Shown here piece after piece: positions 1,243 to 50,365 of a DNA stretch of 64,000 bases. The notes under the pieces were generated by a model, which worked only from the letters and a program-made list of their open reading frames with translations, did not search any database and was not told the DNA's origin. Position 1 is the first letter of the stretch. Every line of letters begins with the position of its first letter. The translations under genes were made by a program, and so were the position numbers. Source of the DNA: Trypanosoma brucei (lineage: Eukaryota); NCBI GenBank assembly GCA_000002445.1, contig CP000068.1:1472001-1536000 (forward strand). Direction: 5' to 3'.

Positions 1243-2045
1243 TTTAGTCTTTATTATTATCATTATTATCATTAATGTTATTACTGCTCTCATTATAATA
1301 TTCGTATATACACACTCACAACACTTTCCTATTATTATTATTACTATTTATACTATTACTGCTCTTATTATAATATTCGTATATACACACTCACAACACT
1401 TTCCTATTATCATTATTATCATTAATGTTATTACTGCTCTCATTATAATATTCGTATATACACACTCACAACACTTTCCTATTATCATTATTATCATTAA
1501 TGTTATTACTGCTCTCATTATAATATTCGTATATACACACTCACAACACTTTCCTATTATCATTATTATCATTAATGTTATTACTGCTCTCATTATAATA
1601 TTCGTATATACACACTCACAACACTTTCCTATTATTATTATTACTATTTATACTATTACTGCTCTTATTATAATATTCGTATATACACACTCACAACACT
1701 TTCCTATTATCATTATTATCATTAATGTTATTACTGCTCTCATTATAATATTCGTATATACACACTCACAACACTTTCCTATTATCATTATTATCATTAA
1801 TGTTATTACTGCTCTCATTATAATATTCGTATATACACACTCACAACACTTTCCTATTATTATTATTACTATTTATACTATTACTGCTCTCATTATAATA
1901 TTCGTATATACACACTCACAACACTTTCCTATTATTATTATTACTATTTATACTATTACTGCTCTTATTATAATATTCGTATATACATACTCACAACACT
2001 GTTCTATCATTATTACAATTATAACTATTATAACCCTAAACAATA
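1243..2045 (-). repeat. VSG-associated 70-bp repeat array, about 10.5 units of ~75 bp. Two unit variants occur in the order A B A A A B A A B B.
   Basis: Direct tandem units read 'tattat(c)attattat...gctctcattataatattcgtatatacacactcacaacactttcc'. The reverse complement matches the canonical T. brucei 70-bp repeat core GTGTTGTGAGTGTGTATATACGAATATTATAAT plus a TAA/TRR tract. Confidence 0.88.
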
Positions 2046-12271: not shown

Positions 12272-13727
12272 TTATGCCAGAACCAAAACTGCAAGCAAAA
12301 GAGGGACCTTGTTAATCACAAAAGAATTGTTTACTGTGGTGTTTGTGTTTGTTTTTTCATCGTTTTCCGCTTTCACTGAGTCTTTAAGTTTGCATTTTCC
12401 GTCTTTGAAATCACACTTCTCATTGTCGCATTTAGCTTGGTCGCTTCCCTCGCATTTTATGTCAGACTTTGTGGCTGCGGCTATATTGTCGCATATCCTT
12501 GCTTTTGCTTCTAAAAATTGCTTTGAGACAGCTGTTAGTGCTACATTGTCTGGTGTAGCGAGATTCTCTAGCTTGTCTTTTAGCTCTTTGCCGCCGATCG
12601 TTAAGTCCATCATAGTTTCTTTAAGGGTTTTACAAAATCCATTTTCAAATGCATTTTTATCAGATCCAAATGTCTGGGTTATCAAACTGTCAATTTCTGC
12701 TTTTTGGGCGCTGTTTCCGGGGTCGTACTTGGTTGAAGCTCCGTGTGTTGCTGCTAGCATGACGCACCTGATTGTCTCGTCGCTTTTGCTTGTGGCGGTG
12801 GTCCCGAGATCAAGTTTGCTGAAGTCGCAGTATTTGTTCTTGAGGAAGTCATGTACTCTCCATTCAAGGTCGTGTTCGTGCCGTGCCAGAGATGTTTTGC
12901 CTTCGGTTTTTTTTTGGAGGCTCTGTTTGTGCTGATTTTCCTACTGCTTTCACCTGCAGTTGTTTGGGCGCCTTCTCCTTCAGCAGCTTTTTGTTGACTA
13001 CCTTGACCCGCCAGCTGCTTGGCGTGTTGCATCTGCCGCTGCAACCTGTGTTGCACAACTTGCGGTCGGTGTGCCCTGGGGTGCTGTATTGTTCCAGGCC
13101 GAAGACATTTAGGTTTTCTAGTCCTGGTAAGTTTACTTCCGTTTCTTTGGCTTCTAGGCTGCTGGCTTGTGCATCTGTGCAGCTGCTGCCGTCCGTGCCT
13201 GTGAGAGTTAGTTCGGCGTACTTCTCGGCTGCGCCGGCGCTGTCGGTAAGTGCTTCACCGCTGGCTGCACTGGCTGTTATTGCTGCCGCCTCCGCTATGG
13301 CCCAGTGCTTACCGGATTGTATCGCTAGGACAGTCGCGGTTTCGGCCGCCTTTGCTAAGCACTGCTCCGCTTTTCCAAGTAGTTCTGTTAGCTGTCTGTT
13401 GACTGCTGCTAGAAGTGCGATCGCGCCCCTGGATTTTGCCTTATCTGTCACACTGCTCGCTAGTTCGAGTAGCTCTCGAGCTTCCTGCATGGCCTTGATT
13501 TCGCTGAGCAGGAGTCGCGGTTGCTGTCGATTTGCTTTTTGTAGGCTTTGTATGTAGTTAGCTGATTTACATGCTGTCGACTGCTCGGCTGTCTCAGTGT
13601 CGGCGCCGTACGCGAGTATCGTTATTGCAAGAAACAGTGCTGATCCTGTGAAAGCCGCGTTTACTTTGCGCATTGTTGTGGCTAAATTCTGTTCTACCGT
13701 TAGAGTGGCTTTCTTGAGACGTAGCAC
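12272..13727 (-). pseudogene. VSG: VSG pseudogene with a frameshift between 12760 and 12864.
   Basis: ORF 12272-12760 ends '...KCEGSDQAKCDNEKCDFKDGKCKLKD...NSFVINKVPLLLAVLVLA'. ORF 12864-13727 carries a VSG N-terminal domain with a signal-like 'MRKVNAAFTGSALFLAITILAYG'. Confidence 0.8.
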
Positions 13728-14999
13728 CGGTGTTACAAACCTTTAGGGAGTTTCTGCCGCGAAGATATTGTTGTTTGTTTTTCTCCTTAGCTGCCGTGAG
13801 TTGCGTATATAGTGCAAGTAGGATTGAAAAAAAAATTGTCAGGACACTTAAGTGATTTGGCTTCCTGTGTCTTGGTGCCTGATTGCGCTAAAGTGTGAGA
13901 AAAATGAAGAGGTGATATCGCCCAGTTGGCACGCGCGTACTGCGATGGATGTTTCAGTTTCTAACCTTCTGCATTCCGTAAACATTCTATAACTACTAAT
14001 CAAAGGGTGGACTGTAACAGGAAAGGCCTTGTCAAAAGGCTTTATCGGTCTACTCCCTTTTATTTTAAGCTGAATGTGTGAATTCCAAATCTACTGAAAC
14101 TATACTAGGGATTGAGCAATTTGTGCCTTATTTTCAGCTGCCTTTCACCAGACTATGTGTGGGTGGTGCTCCACTCGCTCTGACGTTCCCGTGAAAAAGC
14201 ATACCGCTTAGCCAAAGGCCCTCATTCTTTCAAATCTAACCTATACCATTTATCCATATGTAAATCAATTAAAATTTATGTTTCTCCCTCCCTTCTATCA
14301 TCTTCTAATTTGAATGCCTCCCTTTTAACACGAAATAACGTGAAACTGTCGCTTCCTCTCGTAAATAAGATTGGCTTATTGTTTTTTATTTTGATTATCT
14401 GACTTCGTTTTGTGGAAATGGAGGTTCAAACTGGTATTTTTGGGCTCCAAAAGTACCTGACTCATTGCTGTTGTTCTAGTAATTCGTGCGGTCATCTGCG
14501 CCTCTGCGACAACTATTATATGAATTGTTCGTCCCTTCAAGGGTCTTGGTTTCTGGCGTCTATAACAATATGAAATAGGATGAGTATCATTAAAAACTTT
14601 CTGCAACGCGTAAATCTCCTCAAACAGGTAAAATACACTTAAAATAAAGCAGTTTCTGCTTCTTTTTTAATGTGTTATCCACCGTAATTAAACTGTAGTT
14701 AAAGCTTTAAAAATATCTTCTCACAAATATTACATTTTTTTACAGAAATGTTAGCAATTATTTCTACATCTGATGAGAATAATAATTTTACTTTTCCTCA
14801 TACTCATCCAAAACCTTCCTTCTTATGCTCATTCTCCTTCATTTTCACAGCTGGATGTTGGGATAGGCCATCAGAATAAAAAACTACAATCGCCGCTATT
14901 TCTCACTAGCATTTATACATTAAAAATTTATGCATAATCTTCAACTGTCATTTACTGTATTGTCACATTTTCTGGCATTTCATTCTGTATTTTTCAAAC

Positions 15000-15250
15000 G
15001 TTTTGCTTACTGCTTCTTCAGATGATGTAGCAGCTCCATGTGGCTTGTACACTGTATTTACTTTTTATCCAATAGCTCACCCTATCATCCCTTTGTGTAT
15101 TGGCTGCCCCATTTATCATATTCTTTTTCATCTCTCTTTCTCTTTCCCTCTTTCTCTTCCTCTTACAAACTCTCCCCCTTATTCACTTACTCCCATTGCA
15201 CACTCGCCATTGTTTTAATCTCTTCTATTTTGTTCAAAGAATTTGCTTAT
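15000..15250. repeat. Conserved cassette element distal to the 70-bp repeat.
   Basis: It has 'ccatgtggcttgtacactgtattt' and is polypyrimidine-rich on +. Confidence 0.5.
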
Positions 15251-15254
15251 CACA

Positions 15255-15342
15255 AACATTCGTATTATAACAATAGTATGTACATACTCACAATACTCTC
15301 CTATTATTATTATTATACATATTAACCTAACTAATATAAATA
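15255..15342 (-). repeat. Single 70-bp repeat.
   Basis: 'cgtattataacaatagtatgtacatactcacaatactctcctattattattattat'. Confidence 0.65.
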
Positions 15343-15545
15343 AAATAACAAAGTTAGAATATACTCTAAGTAAGCAAAATAAAACAAAAAATAGAAAGAT
15401 TTTAGCATGGCGCTCGTTTTTCATCACCATCACTATACTACGATGTATCTATAGGTCATTATCGCACACATTTGACCTATATTCGAAAAATACATATTTT
15501 TCATACTTTTCAAGAATTCAGCTCTTTTCACATTTTAACGATAAA

Positions 15546-15561
15546 GTATTAAAATATATCA
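15546..15561 (-). promoter_or_regulatory. VSG 3'UTR 16-mer with one mismatch. The ingi separates it from the nearest upstream VSG CDS.
   Basis: 'gtattaaaatatatca' is the reverse complement of TGATATATTTTAATAC. Confidence 0.55.
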
Positions 15562-15611
15562 AATTATCTGAGTAGAAGATTCCAAAATTTTTCTAAATTT
15601 CCTAATTTTTT

Positions 15612-18600
15612 TTTCATTGTGCATTTATTGTGCTCGTGCTTCGGTAGGGTCGTTACTGCTCCTGTGGCTCTGCAAACCAGAAAGGGACGTTGAGCGCAAC
15701 GGGGATCCCATCCTCGCTTTATTGAATGAAACTTTGAAGCTGATTGACTTATCCGCAGTTTCAGCTTCAAGGGGACGTTTCCTCATGGTTTCTGCAGTGC
15801 ACACCCATAACGACTTCGCTGCCGCAGAGGTGTGGTAGGCGAAATCCAACTCCGTGGGCGACCAGTGCCTCTTCACGGCTTGAGTGGGCCCAGATGTTGA
15901 CTCTAAGATTGGGGGGAGGGGGCAGATGGGCTCTCTAGGTTTAAGAGCTCCTTCAGGAAGCTGGCTAGTTGCACACTGAAGAACACTTCCTCGTCCTTCA
16001 GGGTTTCCAGACCGTGCTTTTCCCTTAGTGCTCGCAAGCTTGGGCACTGAAAGAGGTGCACTGCAGACTCCTTACACTTCACCTTCACTGAGTTATACTC
16101 AGCTTTCTTCTTCAGTTGGCCGTGCTTCGCGTGCAGGTGTATCGTGAGGCACTGCTTGACTGTGCACTTCATTTGGCAGTATGGACACTGGAGTGACCTT
16201 TGCAAAAGAGGTGTTACCGCTACCGTGCGGTCCTTCAGCTTCCGTTTCACTGCCGTGGCGTGCTCATGATGTGTGCGCGTGTGTCAAATCAGTGAGCACC
16301 ACTGCTTGTACGCCCTGCTGCGTCTATCATACACATAGTCCATTCCCTCTTTTCCTTCTGTGTGGCGGCCCACCCGAGGACGCTTCTGCGGTCTCTCCCC
16401 ATTTTCCCTTCCTGCTGACTCCAATGACCCACTCACCTTACTCTTTGCCTGAGCTTATGCTTTCACTACCTTTCGCTTTGCCTTCTCTTGTGGCTGAGGA
16501 CGCAATGACTCGTCGTGACCCGGGTGCTTTTCCAGCATGTGTCGCAGCAACCATCTGTAATGATATTGCTTTCTAAAAATGGAACACGCCACTGTAACCG
16601 ACTGCTCTGCCATGTTAGAGTCTTCCGAGTTCGTGTTCGAGGTTGGTTCGCACTTGTGCCTGGTGGGCCATGTCTTGCTTTTGAGGACGCGTTGGCACCT
16701 GTAGCATACAAATTCCTTTTTATCCTGCTCCTCCTGCTCTGCATCGCCATCACTGTCGGACGCGTCCTGTGACTCTATGGCGCTGCGCCTTAACTGCTTT
16801 TCCGGGTTTTTCTGCAGCCACGCGTGTACAGTGTACTTTTTCGCACACCAACGCCATTTGAGTGCGTTGCCATTATCGGCCCCATCTTACTCCACTGCTG
16901 GCACTCTATCCGGAGGGTGCTGTGCCATATACTCCACGAGTAGCCCACACCGCTCAAAGACATCACCGCACACATGACATCTGTAACCATTCTTATGCGT
17001 CTGCACCGCACCCTTAGCTTTCTTGGTCAGTGCTAATGCATAATTCCTCCCCAGACCATGAATCTTCACTAGGTGCACCACGTCAGGCTTTCTCCGCCCG
17101 CAAACCACGTTGAACAATCGGCAAGTGATCTGGTCGTTGCTCCTTGTCGCGATTCCAGGATATGGTGCGTTCGCATTGTCCGATGCTTACTCCGCCCCCC
17201 GGGCGCTCCTCTGCTGTGTCGCTGCGTGGTTCCTGCGTGTCGCACCGTATGCATCCAAGCTGGTCCGTCTTGCGTGTGAGCACCCTGTTAAGCGATCCAA
17301 AATGCTTCGAAGTGCCTGTTCTGAAGTGCGCCATCAGCGTCTCACCCAGACGTACCAGCCTTGTGTGCTTCGGTGCGGCCCGAACGTAGTCGAGTAGCGC
17401 ACTACGATGCGTACGCGGCATCCGGACCTCCTTGAAGGCCTTGTATACCGCATTCCCGACCTTCCTCTCCACACACGTCACTATGTCAGTGATCCATGCT
17501 GGATACGACTGCAGCTTTGTGTTTCCCTGCTCAACTGCCTTTTCAGCAGCTTCATCGCGCGGCACCCCGCAGTGTGAGAACACGAAATGGAAGTTGACGG
17601 ACACAAGAAGCCGCACAATACTCAAGATAAGATCCCAAATGCGTCCCAGAATCGAGCCCTCCACAACTTCAGGGCCAGTGCTCAGCGCCATCAACAGCGA
17701 AATTAAATCCGTGAGGGTCACCACTCTCGTTCTGTGCGTCTTGCTTAGCTCCATGAAATCCGCTAGCCTCTTCAACCCCGCCTCCATCGCCGCACATTCC
17801 GTGCGATAGCTGCAGGATGGCGACCCAACTCCCAGGGCAACCTTCTTCCGCTTCCTCTCTTTCGGGTACACAAGGGCACCTGCGCCTGAAGAGACGTCCA
17901 GCACCACGGACCCGTCCGTCCACACCTGGTTATCATAGTCCTTGAACAACTGTACCTGCCGCATGGTGTGCACCTTCTTGTCCCTCCCCGGCGCACCCGC
18001 TTTGAGGCCGCCTGGCTCGTTGGTGTTAAAGTGGACGCACGTGGCCATCCGCAACACCGTCGCATCGTGTGGATTCTCAGGGCCATCAATGGTGTTTTAC
18101 GGACGCTGTACCGTCGCAAGCATGACATGGGCTGGATGCTCAGGCGGGAATATGCTGTTCGTAATTTTTAATTGCGTTGGGCACTCTGCTTTCAGGCGTA
18201 GATAGCATGCCAAGGCTCTCAGGTGCGCCATATCATTTATAAACTTTAGCCGAGCTTCTCACACGGCATCCTCCCGATTGGCTGCCTTGGGAATACCCGT
18301 CATTATGTGTGCTGCCTGTGCCTGCACCCTCTCTAGCCTCTCATGATCCGACAGCGAGGAATCGGACCACCATGAAGCAATGCCGTAGAATATCTTAGCC
18401 CGGACCAGCACTAGGTAGAATGCTCGCAGTTTCTCCCTGTCTGGGCCCCATTCTGGCGACACCACTGCCCTAAGCTGCATGAGCCGCGTGTCTGCCGCTG
18501 CCTTCACGCTCCGTGCATGCTTGCTCAAACCCTTGTGCGGCTGCACGGTAATACCGAGCAGCTTCGGTGTGTACACTTCCTTCAACACAGTCTCTCCAAT

Positions 18601-20887
18601 CCTCAGGTAAAGCAGGTTTGTGTCCCGCGCACCGAACAGTGTGTACTCAGCTTTCCCCGCTGACCAATTTGTGACTCAACTCAGTCCTTGTTGAACGGTT
18701 CGCTGGATTGCATTCAGGTCAGAGCTCGTGCATACTATTGTGAGGTCGTTCGCAAAGAAAACGTGCTGCAACCCAGGGATGCAGTTCAGCCGCTTGCTCG
18801 GCGAATCCACCTTGACAATGAACAGCAGTGGACCATGCACCGAGCCCTGAGGGACCCAGCATGTGAGGTGTATGTTCTCAGACAGCATATTGCTCGCCCC
18901 CACCCGCGCGGTGCGACCCTGCAGGAAGCCCGCAATTCACGCCACCAGATGCTTCTCAACTCCAAATGTCTCTAGTGCCTTAACCATGCAGCCGTGATCA
19001 ACCGAATCAAAAGCGCGCGCATAGTCAATAAATACAGCTGCTGTCTTCTCACCGTCCCTCCTCCGCCGCACTGCGCTTGTCACCTGCATGAGCGTGTCCA
19101 GCGTCGACTGCGCCGGCATGAAGCCTGCTTGCTGTGGCTGCAGATTGTCTTCAATGCAGTTCCTAACACGACGTGCCACAATGTGCTCCATCACTTTGCA
19201 CAGCGTGCTGATGAGAGTGGCCGGCCGAAAGGACGCGGTACTGCTAGCTGGCTTGCTCGGCTTAAGCAGCGGGACTGTGATGCCGTGCCTCCACTTGGCT
19301 GGTACCCTCCCCGCGCGCAGACTGCAGATGAACAGTCGCAGCGCACACTTTTTGGCTACTCATCCTAGCTGCTTCAGCTCCTCTCAGTGGATTCCATCAT
19401 CGCGCGCCGCCGTGCCAGAATGCAGCTCACACAGCGCAACTTTCAGCTCTGACTCGGTGACCGGCCGGAACGCGCTCCGTCTGGTGCTGGGTATCTTCAT
19501 TTCTGGCGCATGTGGTGCCTTCGTTGACCTGGCCTTGTACATGTTGACCAAAGTTTGTGCTTACTGGCGCTTTGTCAACCGATGGCCATTCACCACCAGC
19601 ATTGGCGAAGTCAACGACCGCGGCGCATATACCGACTTCACCAGGTTCCAGTTCGCCGAATCCGTGGTCGCCGGCTTCGACACATTTTCCTTCCACCAAC
19701 CCAGCGCCGTTTCAGCCAGCGCTTTCTTCCTCCAGCGAGTCAGCCCGTCCAGATTCGTCAGCCCCTGTGTCCAGAACGGTAACGCTACGCCCTTGCCCTT
19801 GGGAATTGTCCTCTTTGCGGCCATTCGGATGCCTCATGTCACCGCCTCGTCGAGGGCATCCGCGCCCTTGTCCGGCCTCTTCATTCCTCTGAATATGAAC
19901 TCGTCACTCAATTTTCTAAACTCCTGTCACCTCGCTTTGTTCCGTGCATACAGTGTACGTGTGGGCTTGGGGGGGGGGGCAATCACGTCTAGGCAGGTGC
20001 CCCACGAACACATCGAACGTGATCTAATAATGATCACTGTGCGGGCTCAGTGTGTATGCCAAGTTAGAGATCTCGCGCAGCCTCCACACAACGTGATGTC
20101 CGGCGACGATAGTGCACCCGTTCCCGGCTGCCTCCTGGTGATCGATCCGGTATTCGCAACTTTCAGATCGCTCTGCACGCACCAGTTGACTACGCACTCT
20201 CCCTTGTCGTCGCTCGGACGAAACGGATCCCACAACACGTGGTGTGAGCTCACGTCCGCTTCTGCTACCAATGGCCCGCTTTCTACCGCTAATTGTTTCA
20301 ACTATGCTTTTGAATTCATCGATTTTCTAGGAAAATAAGCTGAAGCGCCTGCCAGGTTCACAGCAGCAGAAAATCGCAGCGTCGCTGTCACTTTTTCTGG
20401 CACTTCCTTGTCCATCTTTCACACCCCCACTCCCACCCCTGTGCGGTGTTTTTGCCACAACTACATGCTGCTATCCGCCTATTTGAAGCGCAGCACACTC
20501 CACCGACGCTAGGAGTGTCTCCTGCAAGAGACAAAATAAAACCATATCCTCATGAATCTTCCTCTTCATGACAACCCGCTTCGACTGGAAGAAACCCCTA
20601 AATTTCCACTGGTTTCCACGAATAACGGGAGCAAGATTCGTCTCAACATCTTCACTAAGTAGTAGTATAAGCCTTTTTATCCCAATCGAGGTAAGGTTGC
20701 ACGTGCAGAGGAGCAGTCTAATATATTGCTTCACCCTAGAGTGCCGATGCTGCTACATACTTCTTCTCTGGTCGCCGAAAGCCCCCTTTCCACCCCAATC
20801 ATGTTAAACAGGGCATAATGCGGGCGCTTGTCTTCCTCCTGGATAAAGTACTAGACCCCGGCACCACATTGAGGTGACCGGCATCAC
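15612..20887 (-). mobile_element. ingi: ingi non-LTR retrotransposon, about 5.3 kb. The copy is degenerate and its single ORF is broken into many frames.
   Basis: Minus-strand ORF fragments encode RT motifs ('AAVFIDYARAFDSVDH', 'WVPQGSVHGPLLF', 'FANDLTIVCTSS'), an RNase H ('VWTDGSVVLD...') and two C2H2 zinc fingers ('CPYCQMKCTVKQCLTIHLHAKH', 'YRCHVCGDVFERCGLLVEYMAQH'). A poly(A) tail shows as T9 at 15612-15620 on +. The 5' end near 20887 reads, on the minus strand, 'CCATGGTGATGCCGGTCACCTCAATGTGGTGCCGGGGTCTAGTAC...'. Boundaries are approximate. Confidence 0.8.
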
Positions 20888-20938
20888 CATGGAAATCTGC
20901 AAATTTTAGTAAAAAAAAGAGCAAGAATTCATAGAATT

Positions 20939-22540
20939 CTAAAATGCCACCAAACTCATAACAGCAGCAGCCATACTCAGGGCCATTTTCTTATTTACAA
21001 AAAAACTAGAATCATTGCACTTGTCTTCAATTCGACCACAGTTGGCTTTTTCTCCGGGTTTGTGACCCTCATTTTCCTTTTCACAGTCCTTTTTTTTGGT
21101 ATGTCTTGTGTACCTATTTGACTCACGTTTCCCATCATTCCACCATTTTTCTTGGTTTTCTTTTTCTACTTTCTTTTTGGCCTCTTCACTCAATGTGCAC
21201 TTTTTTCCTTCGCCTCCTTTGGGGTTAAAAACGCACCCCTTATCCTTTAAGTTTTCACATTCTTTCTGGTTGTCGTTTGCTGTTTTGCAAACTCGTTCTG
21301 CTTCCTTTGTGGCTCTTAGGTGGTCTGTTGCGGGTTGGTTGCCGCTACTTTGCCCCGTTGTTGCTGCTGCAAATAGTTTGCTCTCAGATGCCAGTCCTTC
21401 GGCTGCCTTTGAGAGGAGCGTTAGAGAAGCTGCTAAGGCATTGCTTGTGCTTGCTGCTGTTGCTCCTGCTCGCATTGCTGCTGCTGCAGTTTCAATTTTT
21501 GTTGCCCATGCTAGCTCCTGCATACCTTTTTTGCCTGTTTTATATTTGGGCATTTTGAAGCAAACGCCGTTTGTTCTTGTCCCGTCGCAGGTCGCTGCTC
21601 CGTCAGTGGTGCCGAAGTAAGCGTCCGTTTTGAAAATCTTGATGTGGCTTTCTAAGCTCCGCAGCGCTGTGAGCATCTTGTCCGGTGTTATTTCCTCCTC
21701 CGTATTGAAGTTACAGTCTTTTACCAAGGCGTCGTATTGGTTTTTGATATCGTTTTCCGCTGCCAGGTTATGTGCTTTTGGTGCATGGTTGCTGGCGTGA
21801 TCACTGCAGATCTTGTTTGCGCCCGTTGGGATGTCTGAGTTTCCTTGGGTGCATACACAAATTAAAATGTCCGCTAAGCAGTCGTCAGTGCCTGTTACCG
21901 TGCCTGCTCCGCAGAAAGCTGCCGAGGCCCTTGCCGCTGATGTTTTCCCGGCATCGGTGAACTCTTTTGCCGCTTCCCCTGTTCCGATCGCCGCCTCTGT
22001 GAGCAGTTTTTTAATCTTTGCTGGTTCGGCATTGTCGATGGCTGCCTGAAGACTCTTGATTTTGGTCTGTAGGGTTGAAGCTTGTTCTAGAATGAGGCTC
22101 ATTCTTGTTCGCGCAAGCTTTAGCTGTTGGTCTGTTATGGATAGTTTGGAGAAGTTGCTGGGTCTGCTGTCGGCGCCGTGCTTCTTGAAGACTCTTTCGG
22201 CGCTTGCTGCCCATTCCGCCCAGCTGGAAGCCCAGTGAGAATTTTCTTTGGCTGGCGACGTTTGCGGGTCCCATTGCTTCTGGGTTCCGTCTGGTTTTAG
22301 AAATTGATTTACCCACGCGGGTCCCCCTAAAGTCATGTTAACGTCGTTGATAGTCTCCATTGCGTTTTGCCATTCCTGTTCCTGGTCTGGAGCTTTGATC
22401 TTCCCTGCTTGTAGTTGTAATACACTGCACAGAGCTTTATAAACGCTGGCGTGCGCTGCGGTTGCAGTGTCGGCGTCACTGCTTTGTGGTACCATCATCA
22501 AAATGACTGACGCTGTTGCTGCGTAACCTGGCATTGCCAT
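20939..22540 (-). CDS. VSG: Variant surface glycoprotein, an intact 533-aa ORF with an A-type N-domain.
   Basis: The product has a signal peptide ('MAMPGYAATASVILMMVPQSS'), the N-domain motif 'VYKALCSVLQLQAG', a C-terminal cysteine-rich domain and the GPI signal '...CNDSSFFVNKKMALSMAAAVMSLVAF*'. Confidence 0.88.
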   Translation of the reverse strand: MAMPGYAATASVILMMVPQSSDADTATAAHASVYKALCSVLQLQAGKIKAPDQEQEWQNAMETINDVNMTLGGPAWVNQFLKPDGTQKQWDPQTSPAKENSHWASSWAEWAASAERVFKKHGADSRPSNFSKLSITDQQLKLARTRMSLILEQASTLQTKIKSLQAAIDNAEPAKIKKLLTEAAIGTGEAAKEFTDAGKTSAARASAAFCGAGTVTGTDDCLADILICVCTQGNSDIPTGANKICSDHASNHAPKAHNLAAENDIKNQYDALVKDCNFNTEEEITPDKMLTALRSLESHIKIFKTDAYFGTTDGAATCDGTRTNGVCFKMPKYKTGKKGMQELAWATKIETAAAAMRAGATAASTSNALAASLTLLSKAAEGLASESKLFAAATTGQSSGNQPATDHLRATKEAERVCKTANDNQKECENLKDKGCVFNPKGGEGKKCTLSEEAKKKVEKENQEKWWNDGKRESNRYTRHTKKKDCEKENEGHKPGEKANCGRIEDKCNDSSFFVNKKMALSMAAAVMSLVAF

Positions 22541-24099
22541 GGGATGTGCTGTCGACTATTCTTTAGTGTTTGGAAAAAGAAGGAAGTTGCTTCACGAAGA
22601 TGATTAGCTACGGAAATGCTTTACTTCTTTGTTTTCAGCTTGGTCTTATTGACAAGCACAGATTATGTTCACCGTGTCGTTTTAGCTACGTTCAGCGGCC
22701 GGAGTTGTTGTTCCCGCCAGCCTGCGCTGCTATAAGATTCCCGGTTTTTGTCCCTTTTAATTACCTTTAGGGGAACTTTAGATTCTTCCAAGACTTCACC
22801 CATTTTCAGCCCCCAGTTTCCTTGCCTTTCAATTGTGTTTATTGTTCTTTTGTTGTTCATCACAGCAGCCCTTTTCATACGTGCTAAACTTTTTATTGTT
22901 TCCCTTACCTGACATCTCAGTTGCTTACTCACAAGCATTGCCGCGTCTACGGTATGTTTCTGTGTACGCTAGAACTGATATTGGTGGTGCTGCTGTTTTT
23001 ATGATATTTTCGTGTGTAAATTCTGCTGTTTTAAATACCAGTTGTTTTGTTTCTCTACGGCTTTTTGCGAGGATTTTCATTATTTCATCTGCCATTCCTG
23101 GTACTAAACTAACTTTGCACATTGATTTCTGTACTGCTATTTTTTATTGTCCGCATACTACTTGTCCGTACAAGAGCAACTGCTGATACAAATCTTGTGT
23201 ATCTTTCTATACTTTTGGCGCTTTTTCGATGCAATCTGATAAATATTTCTTGTCGATTTTCTTTTTCTAGTACTGCTTGCTTATAAACTTACCATGACGA
23301 AAAAAACTGTAAGGAGGAAAAAAATGCTTATGGGAAATGGGTATTTCTCTGAACTGCCGACCTTGTCAGAAGAAATAAGTTCTACTCTCAAAAATGACTG
23401 CACTTTTATTTAACTTAATCTGCTGTTAGAGTTGTACTTTTAACCTTTCCATAGATTCATTCTAGAAACTAAAAAATATTCATTCTGGCTAATAAATTTT
23501 CTAATTTGCTTGTGTTTGTGTTCCGCTAAGGCTCACTATTTGTCAGCTACATGTCGAAGCACTACCACTTTTAGTGGTGGTTTCGGTTTCTATCTCGGTG
23601 CATGTTTCCGTATACTTTCAGTCTTTCTAAATTTGGCGTTGTTTTTTCTAGTTGATTCAAGATTAGTTGTGATCACTAGCTTCGTGCTTTGTTTCTGGAT
23701 GTTCTTTGGTCTTGCGTCCTGCAATAGTCGGATCTTCAGACGAATTATACACCTCTTGCTAGTGCTTCCTCTAATATGTCGGTGGTTCACACTCAGATAT
23801 TTTATTCCGTATGTTTTTTCTTCCCCTTCTATTTTGCCGCTGTTTCATCGTAAAGGTAACGATTCCGTTTTGCATGTACAATGCACTTGGTCTCTCTGCC
23901 ACTACCCGTGTGTAATCCCCGTGTGTATGATGGTGCCCATTTTCAGATTTGTATTCAAGCGTGCGCAAACTCTCTCCATTTTTCTCTATCTTCCTCTCGG
24001 TTAATGTGCCGCTGACACATTAATCACATTGCACTCTTTCCATTTTTTAAGTGCTTCTATTATCCCCACCCACTTCATCTTCATAAAAACTTTTATTTT

Positions 24100-24172
24100 A
24101 ATATTTGTATATACACAATCACAACACCATCCACTTATCATTTCTATTATAATACTAAATTATTCCTAATAC
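24100..24172 (-). repeat. Single degenerate 70-bp repeat.
   Basis: 'atatttgtatatacacaatcacaacaccatccacttatcatttctattataatact'. Confidence 0.6.
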
Positions 24173-24424
24173 CCACAAAATAAACAAAATAAAACAAATT
24201 AGAATACCATACGTTTTAAATGCTCTATAACCCTACTATTTTGCATAAATAAGCCACTATCATATACACTTTAAAAATTTTTATGCTTTCATTATTTTTA
24301 AAAATGAGAATTTTCACTTTTTCAACAAAAAATGTTATAAAATACCATATATTAATATGTTTCATAAATTTAATATAAAATTAGGCTAAAATCCTAAATT
24401 CTTTATTATAGAATAAAAAATGCA

Positions 24425-25870
24425 AGCAAAAGAGATGCGTTAATCACAACTGTATTTATTCCTGTTGTATTTGTATGTTTACAATCATTCTCTACTCTCT
24501 TTCCATCTTTTCCATCTTTAGCCTTGCACCTGCCACTTTTGTCTGTTCCTTTCCATTCGCACATGGCGCCGGTATCGCACTCGGTTTTACCCTTTTTATC
24601 ACAGCTTGGTGAATGTTTTGTGGCGTTTTTTCATGTATCTGTGATTTCATATTTCTTCAACGCTGCCAGTGATTGTTTTGCTAGGTAGAAACCTATGGCT
24701 TGCTCGAGTTTTTTGATATATCTTATCTCTTTTATCTGAATGTCTTTTTCTCCGGACATCGCTTCAGCTGCAATGGCTACACGGTCTACCTGTGAACATA
24801 GCTGTTTATTCAGTTTGTCGTCTGAATCTCCATAAATTTCACCAATGTTTTGTGTTAGTACTGTTTTGTGCTTATCCGCATCCTTTTGTTTCCATTCTTT
24901 GATCTACGTTAGGCCAACAGCTTCTCTTAACGGCGGATTTGCTGTTAGATGGTGCGTCTGTTGACTATTGAATGCTGTCCTTATAGTTTTAAGGTTGACT
25001 TCCAGCGTGTGGAGCTTGCTTATTAGTTCGGCTGCTTTGGCGACTGGAGGTATTGACTAGCTAATGGTTGCCGGTGTTGTACTGTAGGCGCTAGCGAAGG
25101 TTGTCGGAGCTTTGTAACTCACCGCAGTTTGTTTGTAAATTTTGCCGCCTTTGACCATCAGATCGGTGAGCAACGATTTTGTCGTGCAGGTGGTTGGTAG
25201 CGTTGCACCTGTCGATTTTCAGAAAAGGTTTTCTCCCGTTTTTTAGGTTTCCGGTGTCGTGGTTTGTAGATAATACAGCGTTATTGCGGCCTCTGTGTCG
25301 AATGTCCGCGGTACGACTGCCTTGTTCTCACGCGGTGGATCGGTTGGTTGGCACGCCCTGTGTGCCTTTGCACCTGTTTTAAATTTAAGTGCGTACATAC
25401 CGCCGTTGAAAAAGGTGCTTACATCCGTCCCTGCCGCGCTTTCAAGCATCTTCGCCAGAAAATCACTGGTTAGCCTCTGTTGTCCCGCTATCTGCGCACA
25501 CGCCGCAACGTTGTCTAGTGAAGTGCGCAAACCGTTCCTCAACTCCTCTGCTGCTGCTGCTACCTCATCGCTTGGACCTGTCACTATTGGTGCCACAAGT
25601 TTTTTGATTTCAGTGCTTCCAGCTAAGGCCGCTAATAAAACTTGTTTTGTCTCTACGTTGACAGCCGCTCCATATTCGGTTGCTGGTTGTACTTTGTTTT
25701 TTTAGTTGTGTCAACATGTTGCGTACATAGTCGGCTGCTTCGCCAGAGTCTTTCATCTCTATTGTGACATTGTGCACGGGGGATGGAGACGGTACCGCGC
25801 TGAATGCGGTGACTTTTATGAGTAGAGCCGTAGATACGAGATTGATCATGTGCCAACCTGCTTCTTGTTA
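24425..25870 (-). pseudogene. VSG: VSG pseudogene with multiple frameshifts.
   Basis: The 3' end 'aatgcaagcaaaagagatgcgttaatcac...' is a VSG C-terminus read on the reverse strand. ORF 25243-25596 is a VSG N-domain fragment. ORF 25610-25849 'MINLVSTALLIKVTAFSAVPSP...' is a signal peptide. Confidence 0.7.
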
Positions 25871-27777
25871 TTACTGAGTTGCTAGTGTCTGCTGTGCATT
25901 CCCGCGGCTCCAAAGGAGATGTGGTAAAGCTAGTGAAACTGTGGGTGTTAGCATCTCAGTTGTTGACCGTCCGCTGCTTTGTTAACTCAATGCTGCTGCT
26001 AATGCTTTGTATTTATCTCCTTTTCTGTTGCTGTTGTTCCGAATTTTTACCCGACGTCCAGCTGTGCAGGTACGTGCTTGAGAAAATTAGATGCGGCAAG
26101 CCGCTTTGGTTGCTAAAACACAGCAAAGGTGCATTGCTCATCGTCTGAATCCCATGTGAATGTTTGGCACCTTGGTATCCCTAGATGTAGCTATGTGTAA
26201 AACGTAGTAAGAAATTCTTTGGCCACAGTTTTTTACTATTGTTGATTGCTGCAAGAACTTTTCTCGCTTTTATCCTTGTTCCCTTTTTCAATACGCAAAG
26301 AAAAGCAAATAATTGCATATATTATTGTCTTATTTGGCTTCTTTTCTTCTATTTACTCTAGATTTTTACATAGGTTTTGAGGTCTGCATCGGCAATCTTA
26401 TTGAGTGCTGTATCTGGCCAAGTTGGCAACAGCTAAATTTTCATATTGTTCGCTCATTTGGGTCGAGCTCGTGTTTCACCGTTCCACAGTTAAAAAATTA
26501 CCTATTCATATCTCCACTACACTTTGTCGAGTGACTCTGAGGATTTCATTCTTTTTTGAGCCCGATAATCACGAAAGAATGCATTTGACGAGTTTTACCT
26601 GCCATATTACGAAGCTTCGAGCCACATTTAATAGTCATAATTTTTTTATCGTCGTGTGCAGATGGACGGGTCTTACCACTAACTTCACCGTCTCCCTTAC
26701 CCACTTTAAGGTTACTTTTATGGATATCGCTTCGCTCTCCTCTGTTTATCCTCGCTTTCTTGTGGGTTTATAAGTTATTGCTGCCTCCAACCTTGTTTGT
26801 AGAATATCTTCATATATTGTTGTTTGCCTTACTGGTCCTTTTTGGACCACCTAAGGTTTTTGCATACCAGATATTATGCTAACATGGATATTCTACCTCC
26901 TTCTCTCAGTAGTATAGCAGGATCCAAATACAATATAACTGCTGTTGTTGATTACGTCAAACTTTTATATTATTGATTTTTTAAACTCATCAGCACAGAA
27001 AGCTGTAGGTGGATGAATTAATTATGGGAAATTGGTTACCTTTCGCTGTTTATGTATGTTAAGAAGGATGTGATTACACTATTGTAAGCTAAGACGCTTT
27101 GAATCGACAAAATATTTCTCTGAAGTTGGATTTTAATAATTTTATATGGTTTATTATAAAAAAGAAGGACTCTGGTCTATCTAATAACGTTACTATTTTG
27201 GTTGCGTTTAGAAGACAATAAAAGCTACTATCTCTACACCACGTTTTTATTAAACAACACTTCTGTTGCTGTTTGGCTGTTTTCACGCGTTCTGTCGCTT
27301 ATTGTTGTGTCAAACGATAAGTCAAAGGTTTTGAAAAATTAGCCCGAAGAAACCTCCATACTCATTTTTCCATACCCCTCGCGTCTCATTATGTTAAACA
27401 CACACATGTTCCTACATTTTTCGGTTACAGCAGTACAGGAATATCCTTTCCAGACATTGTTTCTCACAGTCCCTAGTTTACAACTAATTTTTCCCTTTAC
27501 TTAACTCAACGATGACTAAGCTGCAGAAGCTTGCGTGTAAGTTCCATTGTACCCTTGATGTTGTTTTACGTGCCTCTGTTTTATGTTTCCATTTGGTATT
27601 TACACCCCACATTTCTTAATATTACTACAACTAAAACCATGAATTACTACTAAAATGCATAAAATAATCAAGAATAACCAAATTACAATATCACTAACTT
27701 TTTATGCCATATTAGCATGCTGCATTACACCCATATGCTAGCATTATACATATTTTACTAAAAATTTCAAAATATCA

Positions 27778-48548: not shown

Positions 48549-48763
48549 TATAACCGTAATTAATATTCATAAAATAAGTTAAGTTAGTTTTTTTATAATA
48601 TCATTCATTTTTAATACCCTGTCACTTTACTTCTACTTTGGAACCGTAGGCTATTACCATACACAATTTAAAAATTTCATTTTTTTTAAAAATTTGTACA
48701 TTTTCATCGAAAAGTTTTAAAGTGTATTTTAAATTATACAAAATTTTATAGGTTTCATGGATT

Positions 48764-50365
48764 TTATAAAATTAAGCAAAAATCCTTATAATTCTCAAAT
48801 GCTACCAAACCCACAAAAGCAGCAGAAACCACGCTGAAAGCGATTTTCTTATCGGGGAGAAAACTGGAATCATGGCACATTTCTTTTTCGGGCTCAGGTT
48901 CACCACCATTACCCTTCCTCCATGCACAATTTTGCTTGTCGCCTGTTTTGTCATTTTCACAAGCGAGTTTATCTTTGTGCGCTGTACACCTATTTGTAGC
49001 TGCTGCTTCCCCTGCTTGGTTTCCTGTTGTTTCTGCTGTGTTTTCCTTTACTGGTTTAGGTTTGCAACTGTTACCATCTGTGGCCTTCTCATCATACTCG
49101 CAGTGCTCGGTTGGGCATTCGGTGGGGGTTGTATTTTGCGGTTTGCATTTCCCCTCTTCTGCTTGCTGGGTTCTGCGGTCGAGTGTAGGGGGTGCTGGAG
49201 GAAATTCTGTTAGTGCCGGCTGGCGCCCAAGAACTTTCAGAGCTGCTATTTGTTGCCGCGCCTCTGCCTGCAGTAGGTGCACTGCCCTGTTGTGTTTGTT
49301 GACCTTGCCGATGTCATTGCTGAGGTTGATGATCTTGCTTACCCATGGAAGCTGCTTGAATTTAGTGTCATCATCTGATGTCAGACCGCTTATTTTTACA
49401 CAGAAACCGTTTGCGTTGTGGCCTTGGCAGTTCCCTGTCTTGAATGTTCTTAGGTAGCCGTTGCCGCTGTTTATGCTGATAGTTGAGTAAATGTCTCTTA
49501 GTGTATTTACCAGCAATTCGGGTGTGACCGTTGTGTCTTGCATCGCTGGACAGCCGTCGATTAGTGCCTTTACGTCTGTCATCTGTGGGCCGCCGGTTGC
49601 CGCTTCCCATTGGATTGCTGCGCCCGAGTGGTCGCAAATCTGATCGCCTGTTTGACCGTTACCTTTGATACACAGGCAGGCAAAGACGGCGCCTATAGTC
49701 GCCGCACCATTTGTGTTGTCTTTCGCTTCGCATGTTGTTTGCATGTTGGCTGCGGCCGCTGTTGCAAATAGGTTGTCTTTTATCGGTAACGTCAGGACAC
49801 CGTCCGCTGCTCCCGTTATCGCTGCTACTAGCTCTTTCTTTATGTCTTCCTTCGTGACCTGTTTGGTGTTTGTGATGTCATCCGCCAGTGCTGCTGCTTT
49901 TGCGTTCACTATCACTAGTGCTCGTTCGACAAATGTTTTGATGTACTTGGCGTTCGCTGGTGCTGCTGTTTGCAGATTAAACCTTTTCATTGTGCTCTTA
50001 TCTGTGTCTGCTTTTGCTAGTTTTGCTGCTTGCAGCCATCTGCCCCAGTTGTCTGACCATCCCGGGTTCGATTTCAGCTGGGTGGGTATCTCCGCTATGT
50101 CGTCTTTGTCGTTGCCGTCTTTGAAGAAGAGGTCCAACCACGTGGGATCGGAAAGCGTGGCGTTTATAGTTTCTAGGTCCGTCAGCTCCTGCGGCGTTAC
50201 TGGTAGTTGTGCTTCTGGTGCCGTCGGATTTCTTGCTAACCCTACAAATGTGCACAGTTTCTTGTAAACATAGCTGTTGTCAGCCGAACCTACATTGCCC
50301 TGGACGTTAGAAACTACGACCATCAGCTCGAAAAAAGCTAATTTGGCGGCGCTGTTTTGTTTCAT
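48764..50365 (-). CDS. VSG: Variant surface glycoprotein, an intact 533-aa ORF with an A-type N-domain and an atypical C-terminal extension.
   Basis: It has a signal peptide and 'SYVYKKLCTFVGLARN'. The C-terminus reads '...CHDSSFLPDKKIAFSVVSAAFVGLVAFENYKDFCLIL*', about 10 residues longer than the usual tail ending in ...LLF or ...VAF. The 16-mer region is degenerate ('agtgtattttaaattata'). Confidence 0.82.
   Translation of the reverse strand: MKQNSAAKLAFFELMVVVSNVQGNVGSADNSYVYKKLCTFVGLARNPTAPEAQLPVTPQELTDLETINATLSDPTWLDLFFKDGNDKDDIAEIPTQLKSNPGWSDNWGRWLQAAKLAKADTDKSTMKRFNLQTAAPANAKYIKTFVERALVIVNAKAAALADDITNTKQVTKEDIKKELVAAITGAADGVLTLPIKDNLFATAAAANMQTTCEAKDNTNGAATIGAVFACLCIKGNGQTGDQICDHSGAAIQWEAATGGPQMTDVKALIDGCPAMQDTTVTPELLVNTLRDIYSTISINSGNGYLRTFKTGNCQGHNANGFCVKISGLTSDDDTKFKQLPWVSKIINLSNDIGKVNKHNRAVHLLQAEARQQIAALKVLGRQPALTEFPPAPPTLDRRTQQAEEGKCKPQNTTPTECPTEHCEYDEKATDGNSCKPKPVKENTAETTGNQAGEAAATNRCTAHKDKLACENDKTGDKQNCAWRKGNGGEPEPEKEMCHDSSFLPDKKIAFSVVSAAFVGLVAFENYKDFCLIL

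What the first reader, a model, noticed from the sequence alone, without database searches (positions are those of the whole stretch)
15340..20939. Degenerate ingi retroelement inserted in the 3' region of an intact VSG, separating the CDS from its 16-mer
The intact 533-aa VSG (20939-22540) has only ~55 bp of 3'UTR before the ingi 5' end. A VSG-type 3'UTR remainder with a one-mismatch 16-mer (15546-15561) and the conserved cassette-end motif lies on the other side of the ingi poly(A) (T9 at 15612-15620 on +). The ingi therefore appears to have inserted into the VSG 3'UTR. I could not find a clean 12-bp target-site duplication by eye. The candidates flanking the element are 'ttaggaaatttag' and 'tttgcagatttcc' on the minus strand. 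The ingi ORF is broken in at least 10 places. Ingi elements are known mainly in RHS pseudogenes and elsewhere in subtelomeres, so an insertion disrupting a VSG 3'UTR is worth noting. Any gene conversion using this VSG as donor with a 3' boundary in the UTR would co-transfer or be blocked by the ingi.
Basis: partly seen in the sequence, partly recalled or inferred. Interest (0 to 1): 0.55.

Follow-up and report, generated by a model that had tools for sequence, protein, structure and literature searches.

The report
Dead retroelement splitting a VSG 3'UTR
A long-dead, 5.3-kb ingi-type jumping gene sits in the 3' untranslated region of a silent trypanosome surface-coat (VSG) gene in the T. brucei reference genome, and it is an ordinary relic of a described retroelement family rather than a new kind of feature.

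Summary
The window is T. b. brucei TREU927. The 533-aa ORF (20939-22540, minus strand) is 100% identical to XP_845139.1, annotated "VSG, atypical".

Forty-six bases after its stop codon lies a 5,286-bp non-LTR retroposon (20892-15607, minus strand). It has a Pr77-type 5' signature, remnants of 2A, endonuclease, RT and RNase H, and an A9 tail at 15606-15614.

It is not canonical Tbingi:
- Its first 76 nt match the Tcoingi consensus at 88% without gaps, against 77% with gaps for Tbingi.
- Its reading frame is 65-78% identical to T. vivax and T. congolense ingi proteins.
- It is preceded by the ingi6 target signature TTTTNNNNNA^A (6/6). The Tbingi (ingi4) signature scores 5/10.

So it is a TbDIRE of the Tvingi/Tcoingi-like subclade, which is extinct in T. 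brucei.

It matches 9/12 in exactly the expected register (P about 0.003-0.009). The rejoined UTR aligns colinearly with the other VSG UTRs in the window.

The element carries about 18 in-frame stops and at least 4 frameshifts, implying roughly 10% decay. The VSG ORF has none, so it was either kept by selection or renewed later.

This is a known kind of element in an annotated genome, so interest is low.

The parts
24112..24130 (-). Core of the 70-bp repeat upstream of the VSG, marking the 5' edge of the cassette
   Evidence: the DNA search for the 70-bp-repeat core, 3 mismatches. It lies 1.57 kb upstream of the ATG at 22540.
20939..22540 (-). VSG CDS, 533 aa, b-type N-terminal domain plus C-terminal domain plus GPI signal. 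Identical to TREU927 XP_845139.1 'VSG, atypical, putative'.
   Evidence: Pfam VSG_B and Trypan_glycop_C. 100% identity to P0211. Tyr aligned to the conserved Cys in 'NRYT' versus 'NRCT'.
20893..20938 (-). 46-nt 3'UTR stub that remains attached to the CDS
   Evidence: Sequence read directly. It aligns with the proximal part of other VSG 3'UTRs.
20905..20914 (-). ingi6-type endonuclease target signature TTTTACTAAA (TTTTNNNNNA, followed by the first-strand nick and then A)
   Evidence: 6/6 fixed positions match the published ingi6 signature (PMC3820030). The motif occurs at about 1% of positions in other VSG UTRs and 0.16% window-wide. The ingi4 (Tbingi) signature scores only 5/10.
20893..20904 (-). 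5' copy of the 12-bp target-site duplication, ATTTGCAGATTT
   Evidence: 9/12 identical to the 3' copy in the expected register. P = 0.0025-0.0086. Adjacent 12-mers in intact UTRs reach 9/12 at 0.6% of positions.
15607..20892 (-). Degenerate ingi-related retroposon (TbDIRE, Tvingi/Tcoingi-like ingi6 subclade), full length, 5,286 bp
   Evidence: tblastn of T. vivax and T. congolense ingi proteins covers 16250-20758 at 65-78% identity. About 18 in-frame stops and at least 4 frameshifts.
20817..20892 (-). Pr77 / '76-79 bp signature' at the 5' end of the element. The DPE motif CGTG is mutated to TGTG.
   Evidence: 88% (67/76, no gaps) to the Tcoingi consensus, 84% to Tvingi, 82% to two TbDIRE2 copies, 77% with gaps to Tbingi. 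Consensus sequences come from the PMC4748587 supplement.
20627..20650 (-). Degenerate 2A-like peptide remnant, DVETNLAP (the canonical motif is D(V/I)ExNPGP)
   Evidence: Aligns to 'GDVERNPGP' of Tvingi protein P0141. 2A-like sequences are a feature of the ingi clade (PMC3708506).
18679..19248 (-). Reverse-transcriptase domain remnant
   Evidence: Pfam RVT_1, 83 bits, E=3e-23, on the stitched translation.
17524..17925 (-). RNase H-like region, inside the longest surviving ORF (17083-18057)
   Evidence: The closest homologues carry PF00075 and are named 'putative RNase H'. No direct Pfam hit on this copy.
15606..15614 (-). Poly(A) tail remnant, A9. The last A is shared with the TSD.
   Evidence: Sequence read directly.
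15595..15606 (-). 3' copy of the target-site duplication, ATTAGGAAATTT
15546..15561 (-). VSG 16-mer with one mismatch (TGATATATTTTAATAC), now 5.3 kb from the stop codon
15300..15545 (-). Conserved distal cassette-end sequence, followed by the next cassette's 70-bp-repeat core at 15281-15299
   Evidence: Alignment with seven other cassette ends. 70-bp core map.

Best explanation
An autonomous retroposon of the Tvingi/Tcoingi-like (ingi6) subclade, a lineage now extinct in T. brucei, inserted by target-primed reverse transcription into the AT-rich 3'UTR of a silent array VSG cassette.

**Steps shown by the sequence**
- Its endonuclease nicked at a TTTTNNNNNA^A site 34 nt after the stop codon.
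- A full-length copy was made, running from the Pr77 signature to the poly(A) tail.
- Twelve bases of target were duplicated.

**Steps inferred**
- The element then decayed neutrally by roughly 10%. It acquired about 18 stops and at least 4 frameshifts, and its TSD now matches 9/12. It is now a DIRE with no coding capacity.
- The VSG ORF upstream stayed open, but its distal C-terminal domain is atypical (7 rather than 8 cysteines).
- The cassette now has its CDS and 46 nt of UTR on one side. The remaining 33 nt of UTR, the 16-mer and the cassette end lie 5.3 kb away.
- As a donor, this gene can probably contribute only through conversions whose 3' boundary lies in the C-terminal coding region or the short UTR stub ('3' donation'). 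In that case the expression site keeps its own 16-mer.
For: **Identity of the locus**
- The VSG is 100% identical to TREU927 'VSG, atypical'.

**Nature of the element**
- RT at 83 bits.
- 65-78% identity over more than 1,400 codons to T. vivax and T. congolense ingi-type proteins.
- A 2A remnant at the homologous position.

**Subclade**
- The 5' 76 nt match Tcoingi at 88% without gaps, against 77% for Tbingi.
- The ingi6 target signature scores 6/6, against 5/10 for ingi4.
- The literature states that T. brucei has only degenerate ingi6 elements and that all of them are preceded by this signature (PMC3820030).

**Insertion at this exact site**
- The TSD matches 9/12 in the predicted register, P = 0.0025-0.0086.
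- Only 0.6% of adjacent 12-mer pairs in intact UTRs are that similar.
- The rejoined UTR is colinear with seven other cassette ends, and the cassette-end spacing to the next 70-bp repeat is normal.

**Age**
- 16 stops in 1,519 stitched codons fits d = 0.08-0.12.
- This agrees with 12% divergence of the 5' signature from the Tcoingi consensus and 3/12 TSD differences.

**3' donation**
- It is frequent in expressed VSGs (PMC3708902).
- A T. evansi relative (87% identity) shares this VSG up to about residue 464 and then carries a different C-terminus.
Against: - No canonical Tbingi protein or full-length DNA was available. The 'not Tbingi' call rests on the 76-nt 5' signature, the target signature and the database hit list, not on a full alignment or an RT tree.
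- VSG UTRs are low-complexity and contain short internal repeats of the ATGAAATTT type. Part of the TSD similarity could therefore be native, although the adjacency control argues against this.
- No empty site from another strain was available.
- The functional consequence for gene conversion is inferred, not shown.
- Whether the T. evansi protein is an expressed, converted copy of an orthologous gene is unknown.
Confidence: 0.85

Rival explanations
1. The element is a decayed copy of the canonical T. brucei ingi (Tbingi, ingi4 subclade).
For: Its size (5,286 bp) is close to the Tbingi consensus of 5,250 bp. The first 40 nt or so of the Pr77 signature are shared by all ingi-clade elements.
Against: - The 5' signature is 77% identical to Tbingi with gaps, against 88% to Tcoingi without gaps. 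It carries the ...GTCTAGTACT..TCCAGGAGGAAG.CAAGCGCCCGCATT block typical of Tcoingi, Tvingi and TbDIRE2.
- The Tbingi target signature scores only 5/10, while the ingi6 signature scores 6/6.
- All of the best protein hits are T. vivax and T. congolense ingi proteins.
Confidence: 0.04
2. The two flanks were never one UTR. The DIRE with its 3' flank (the 16-mer and cassette end) belongs to another, truncated cassette, and recombination joined it to this VSG.
For: VSG arrays recombine often. All UTRs here are AT-rich and alike, so colinearity is weak evidence on its own. The element looks older than the open VSG ORF.
Against: - The 12 nt immediately 5' of the element match the 12 nt immediately 3' of the poly(A) at 9/12 in the expected register.
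- The 10 nt before them carry the ingi6 nick signature. At least 22 nt of the 5' flank therefore belong to the original target.
- No VSG coding remnant lies between the element and the 16-mer.
- Any junction would have to lie within the 24 nt between the stop codon and the signature, or inside the CDS.
Confidence: 0.07
3. The insertion is original to this cassette, but the present VSG coding sequence is younger than the insertion. A later intra-archive gene conversion brought it in, with a 3' boundary upstream of the element. This differs from the main explanation only in history, not in the nature of the element.
For: - At the divergence implied by the element's stops (d about 0.08-0.12), a neutrally evolving 533-codon VSG ORF would stay stop-free with P <= 0.01, and P = 0.035 at d = 0.06.
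- The distal C-terminal domain, the 16-mer and the UTR look decayed, while the N-terminal domain is clean.
Against: Purifying selection on the ORF explains the same data. The stop-count clock is crude. No donor or conversion tract was identified.
Confidence: 0.3

Closest known systems
TbDIRE of the ingi6 subclade ('TbDIRE2'; Bringaud et al. 2006, 2009, 2011)
   Same: - About 5 kb long, full length and heavily degenerate.
- A Pr77 signature of the Tcoingi/Tvingi type.
- Preceded by TTTTNNNNNA^A and flanked by a mutated 12-bp TSD.
- Located in T. brucei, where this lineage is extinct (PMC3820030).
   Different: Nothing substantive. I could not confirm that this copy is one of the eight listed in that paper, because its Fig. 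S1 is not held as text.
Tcoingi (T. congolense) and Tvingi (T. vivax) autonomous retroposons
   Same: - The same domain order: 2A, APE, RT, RNase H, zinc-finger region.
- 65-78% protein identity.
- 84-88% identity of the 5' signature.
- The same target signature.
   Different: Those families are potentially active, with intact ORFs of 1,751-1,752 aa and sizes of 5,404-5,419 bp. This copy is 5,286 bp with about 22 disruptions.
Tbingi / RIME (ingi4), the retroposons usually meant by 'ingi' in T. brucei
   Same: The same clade and mechanism (TPRT, 12-bp TSD, Pr77, poly(A)), and a similar size.
   Different: The second half of the 5' signature differs, the target signature differs (AxxxxxxxTxxxGTxGGxTxxx^xTxTxxTxxxxx), and Tbingi copies are far less decayed.
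'Atypical' array VSGs used through 3' donation (Marcello & Barry classification; Hall et al. 2013)
   Same: An open ORF with a defective C-terminal domain. Such genes are expected to contribute their N-terminal domain while the expression site keeps its own C-terminus and UTR.
   Different: Here the 3' homology block is also physically split by 5.3 kb of retroelement.

Membership tests
ingi-clade non-LTR retroposon | Conserved 76-79-bp 5' signature (Pr77) | tested here: met
   71-88% identity to every published consensus. Best is Tcoingi at 67/76 with no gaps.
ingi-clade non-LTR retroposon | 3' poly(A) tail and a 12-bp target-site duplication | tested here: met
   A9 at 15606-15614. TSD matches 9/12 in register, P about 0.003-0.009. 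Adjacency control 0.6%.
ingi-clade non-LTR retroposon | Single long ORF with N-terminal 2A-like peptide, APE endonuclease, RT, RNase H and a C-terminal zinc-finger region | tested here: met
   All are present as remnants. 2A is DVETNLAP. Exo_endo_phos_2 scores 22.7 bits, below the cut-off. RVT_1 scores 83 bits. The RNase H and C2H2 assignments are only by homology to proteins carrying PF00075 and PF00096.
Tbingi (ingi4 subclade) | Tbingi/RIME-type 5' signature | tested here: not met
   77% with gaps, against 88% ungapped to Tcoingi.
Tbingi (ingi4 subclade) | Upstream target signature AxxxxxxxTxxxGTxGGxTxxx^xTxTxxTxxxxx | tested here: not met
   5 of 10 fixed positions.
Tbingi (ingi4 subclade) | RT-domain phylogeny groups it with Tbingi | not tested
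   No Tbingi protein or DNA was retrievable with these tools. None appeared among the listed hits: all 102, and the best 120 of 194.
TbDIRE, ingi6 subclade | Preceded by TTTTxxxxxA^A followed by a 12-bp TSD | tested here: met
   6/6 fixed positions. About 1% of UTR positions match by chance.
TbDIRE, ingi6 subclade | Closest active relatives are Tvingi and Tcoingi | tested here: met
   Top hits are 65-78% identical T. vivax and T. congolense proteins. The 5' signature agrees.
TbDIRE, ingi6 subclade | Degenerate, with no coding capacity | tested here: met
   About 18 in-frame stops and at least 4 frameshifts. No protein from it is in the collection.
Functional ('intact') VSG cassette | Open ORF with signal peptide, N-terminal domain, C-terminal domain and GPI signal | tested here: met
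   Pfam VSG_B and Trypan_glycop_C. A 23-aa hydrophobic tail follows 'ND'. The signal peptide was judged by eye only.
Functional ('intact') VSG cassette | Full complement of conserved C-terminal-domain cysteines | tested here: not met
   The count is 4 + 3 cysteines, with Tyr aligned to the conserved Cys. The gene is annotated 'atypical', and VSGdb uses that term for C-terminal domains lacking the conserved cysteines (PMC1868767).
Functional ('intact') VSG cassette | Contiguous 3'UTR carrying the 16-mer | tested here: not met
   The 16-mer has one mismatch and lies 5.3 kb from the stop codon.

The most novel reading that the evidence does not exclude
The retroelement is older than the coding sequence it now follows.
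- The VSG body was renewed by intra-archive gene conversion, or held open by selection. The distal C-terminal domain, the UTR and the DIRE decayed together.
- On this reading the DIRE acts as a fixed 3' limit for conversion tracts in this cassette.
- The gene could then be used only through 3' donation. The T. evansi relative with a swapped C-terminus hints at this.
- Dated retroelement relics inside cassettes could then serve as clocks for turnover of the VSG archive.
Probability: 0.25. Interest if true: 0.35.

Novelty: already known. Interest (0 to 1): 0.15.

Why it matters
Mostly it does not. This is a relic of a described retroelement family, in the annotated reference genome, next to a VSG already flagged as atypical.

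Two modest points have some value.
- The AT-rich VSG 3'UTR is a natural target for the ingi6-type endonuclease. Its motif is about six times enriched there.
- The contrast between a roughly 10%-decayed element and an open VSG ORF gives a rough internal clock. It suggests that array VSG bodies are maintained or replaced faster than their 3' flanks decay.

Tried and rejected
- **Encoding contigs.** The look-up of encoding contigs for the VSG, run twice, returned nothing. No orthologous or empty-site locus could be fetched.
- **Papers not held.** Bringaud 2009 (PMC2756862) and Marcello & Barry 2007 are not in the library. The figure listing TbDIRE2 flanks in PMC3820030 is not held as text.
- **Second 533-aa VSG.** The ORF at 48764-50365 was tested as a possible paralogue that might supply an empty site. 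It is only 27% identical.
- **Tandem repeats.** Tandem Repeats Finder found nothing in 13500-26000.
- **ORFs inside the element.** Exact look-up of the 416-aa antisense ORF and of two start-codon versions of the sense ORF (324 and 293 aa) found no database entry. I treat the 416-aa antisense ORF (19088-20338, plus strand) as a chance ORF in GC-rich DNA.
- **Pfam on single ORF fragments.** This gave little. The stitched translation was needed.
- **Native-repeat explanation for the TSD.** I considered that the TSD similarity might be a native tandem motif of VSG UTRs. I rejected this because only 4 of 688 adjacent 12-mer pairs in intact UTRs reach 9/12.


Full report
**Source and context**

The window is a tandem VSG array with everything on the minus strand.
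- There are nine 16-mers, against 0.09 expected by chance.
- There are 22 70-bp-repeat cores, against 0.02 expected.
- The 533-aa ORF at 20939-22540 has a VSG_B domain (E=3.7e-66) and a VSG C-terminal domain (E=1.3e-21).
- It is 100% identical to XP_845139.1/AAZ11580.1, 'variant surface glycoprotein (VSG, atypical), putative', of T. b. brucei TREU927, on a 1,608,198-bp record.
- A 99% identical copy is known from another strain as 'VSG 1125.200'.

**The observation**

Forty-six nucleotides after the stop codon the sequence becomes CCATGGTGATGCCGGTCACCTCAATGTGGTGCC....

About 5.3 kb further on there is an A9 run at 15606-15614. It is followed by AT-rich sequence, a one-mismatch 16-mer at 15546-15561 and the conserved cassette-end block. 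The next cassette's 70-bp-repeat core follows at 15281-15299.

The 247-bp spacing between the 16-mer and the next 70-bp core is typical of the other cassettes in the window, which range from about 180 to 245 bp.

Its coordinates for the 5' end and the T9 run are off by about 5-6 bases.

**What the element is**

Conceptual translation gives one main frame from about 20445 to 17083 and a second from about 17120 to 15925.
- Pfam finds RVT_1 at 83 bits and a sub-threshold endonuclease match.
- Database searches with the RNase H-region ORF and with the stitched RT region return almost only T. vivax and T. congolense ingi-type proteins, at 65-78% identity. A few T. equiperdum fragments also appear. 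None of the listed hits is a T. brucei ingi protein: all 102, and the best 120 of 194.
- tblastn of all retrieved proteins covers 16250-20758 and nothing else in the 64 kb.
- The N-terminus aligns to a Tvingi protein, including its 2A peptide: LLLLISGDVERNPGP against LILLLSEDVETNLAP here. A 2A-like sequence is a hallmark of the ingi clade (PMC3708506).

**Subclade**

The supplement of PMC4748587 prints the consensus 5' signatures. The first 76 nt of this element compare as follows:

| Reference | Identity | Gaps |
|---|---|---|
| Tcoingi consensus | 88% (67/76) | none |
| Tvingi consensus | 84% | one 1-nt gap |
| Two TbDIRE2 copies | 82% | none or one 1-nt gap |
| Tbingi consensus | 77% | yes |

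PMC3820030 gives the endonuclease target signatures.
- For ingi6 (Tvingi, Tcoingi and the degenerate T. brucei members) it is TTTTxxxxxA^A followed by 11 more bases of TSD.
- For ingi4 (Tbingi/RIME) it is AxxxxxxxTxxxGTxGGxTxxx^xTxTxxTxxxxx.

The sequence before the element reads TTTT-ACTAA-A^A-TTTGCAGATTT|CCATGG. That is 6/6 for ingi6 and 5/10 for ingi4.

The same paper says that T. brucei has no active ingi6 element, only eight degenerate ones, and that all eight are preceded by this signature. I therefore file the element as a TbDIRE of the ingi6 subclade. 'Degenerate ingi' is a fair lay description, but it is not the canonical Tbingi.

**The junctions**

Taking the 5' end from the Pr77 alignment (20892), the 12 nt before it are ATTTGCAGATTT (20904-20893). 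The 12 nt that start at the last A of the tail are ATTAGGAAATTT (15606-15595). They match at 9/12.
- For random 12-mer pairs drawn from other VSG UTRs, P(>=9) = 0.0086. For composition-matched shuffles of the two flanks it is 0.0025.
- VSG UTRs contain short internal repeats, so I also compared adjacent 12-mers in eight intact UTRs. Only 4 of 688 pairs reach 9/12.
- The ingi6 signature occurs at about 1% of UTR positions.
- Removing the element and one TSD copy gives an 80-nt stretch from stop codon to 16-mer. This aligns colinearly with seven other cassette ends.

The insertion into this 3'UTR is thus well supported.

**Decay and age**

I count 16 stops in 1,519 stitched codons. One of these lies in a wrongly framed stretch, and three more stops lie in the N-terminal part. 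Frameshifts occur near 20450, 20080, 20000 and 17100. That makes about 22 disruptions in total.

Simulated neutral substitution reproduces 16 stops at d = 0.08-0.12. Two other estimates agree: 12% divergence of the 5' signature from the Tcoingi consensus, and 3/12 differences between the TSD copies.

Under the same d, the 533-codon VSG ORF would remain stop-free with P <= 0.01, and P = 0.035 at d = 0.06. This is an inference from a crude clock. It suggests that the VSG body was either under selection or replaced after the insertion.

**State of the VSG**

The ORF is open, but the second C-terminal subdomain has three cysteines. A Tyr ('NRYT') aligns to the conserved Cys ('NRCT') of a neighbouring VSG. 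This fits the 'atypical' label, which VSGdb defines as C-terminal domains lacking the conserved cysteines (PMC1868767).

A T. evansi VSG is 87% identical up to about residue 464. It then carries an unrelated short C-terminus (...TNTTGSNSFVINK...). That is the pattern called 3' donation.

**Consequence**

The 16-mer is the element through which CFB2 stabilises VSG mRNA (PMC8051951), and here it is 5.3 kb from the CDS. For a silent array donor this matters only if conversion tracts need to reach it.

3' donation was seen in 57% of unique expressed VSG sequences (PMC3708902). This gene can therefore plausibly still donate its N-terminal domain. Blockage or co-transfer of the element remains untested.

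**Verdict**

This is a correctly spotted but ordinary feature. It belongs to a known family in an annotated reference genome, and its mechanism (TPRT with a 12-bp TSD at a family-specific target motif) can be read directly from the sequence. The only mildly interesting residue is the age contrast between the element and the ORF.

Noticed in passing
window 1309-2002 (minus strand): Ten 70-bp-repeat cores spaced exactly 75 bp apart form a long tandem 70-bp-repeat array. Most other cassettes in the window have a single core; one has two (48404 and 48491).
   Followed up: no
window 48764-50365 and 48590-48860 (minus strand): A second 533-aa VSG, only 27% identical to the first. The canonical stop position reads GAG instead of TAG, which extends the ORF by 10 codons into the UTR. 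Its 16-mer is too degenerate to be found with 2 mismatches.
   Followed up: partly
P0212 (T. evansi VSG, UniProt A0A4P8JJ86) against window 20939-22540: The T. evansi relative is 87% identical through the N-terminal domain and the first C-terminal subdomain. From about residue 464 it switches to an unrelated short C-terminus and GPI signal. This looks like a 3'-donation product or a differently terminated paralogue.
   Followed up: partly
window 19088-20338 (plus strand): The longest ORF inside the element (416 aa, ATG start) is antisense to the endonuclease/RT region. It is not in the protein collection and is probably a chance ORF in 54.5% GC DNA.
   Followed up: partly
window 15925-20445 (minus strand, stitched frame): 11 of the 16 in-frame stops in the element are TGA. 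This points to a biased mutation spectrum, for example TGG or CGA changing to TGA. The Pr77 DPE motif CGTG has likewise become TGTG.
   Followed up: no
window 4992-58834 (nine 16-mers): Only three of the nine 16-mers are perfect. The distance from ORF stop codon to 16-mer ranges from about 58 to 288 nt across the five cassettes measured, which reflects how many cassettes in this array are pseudogenic at their 3' ends.
   Followed up: no
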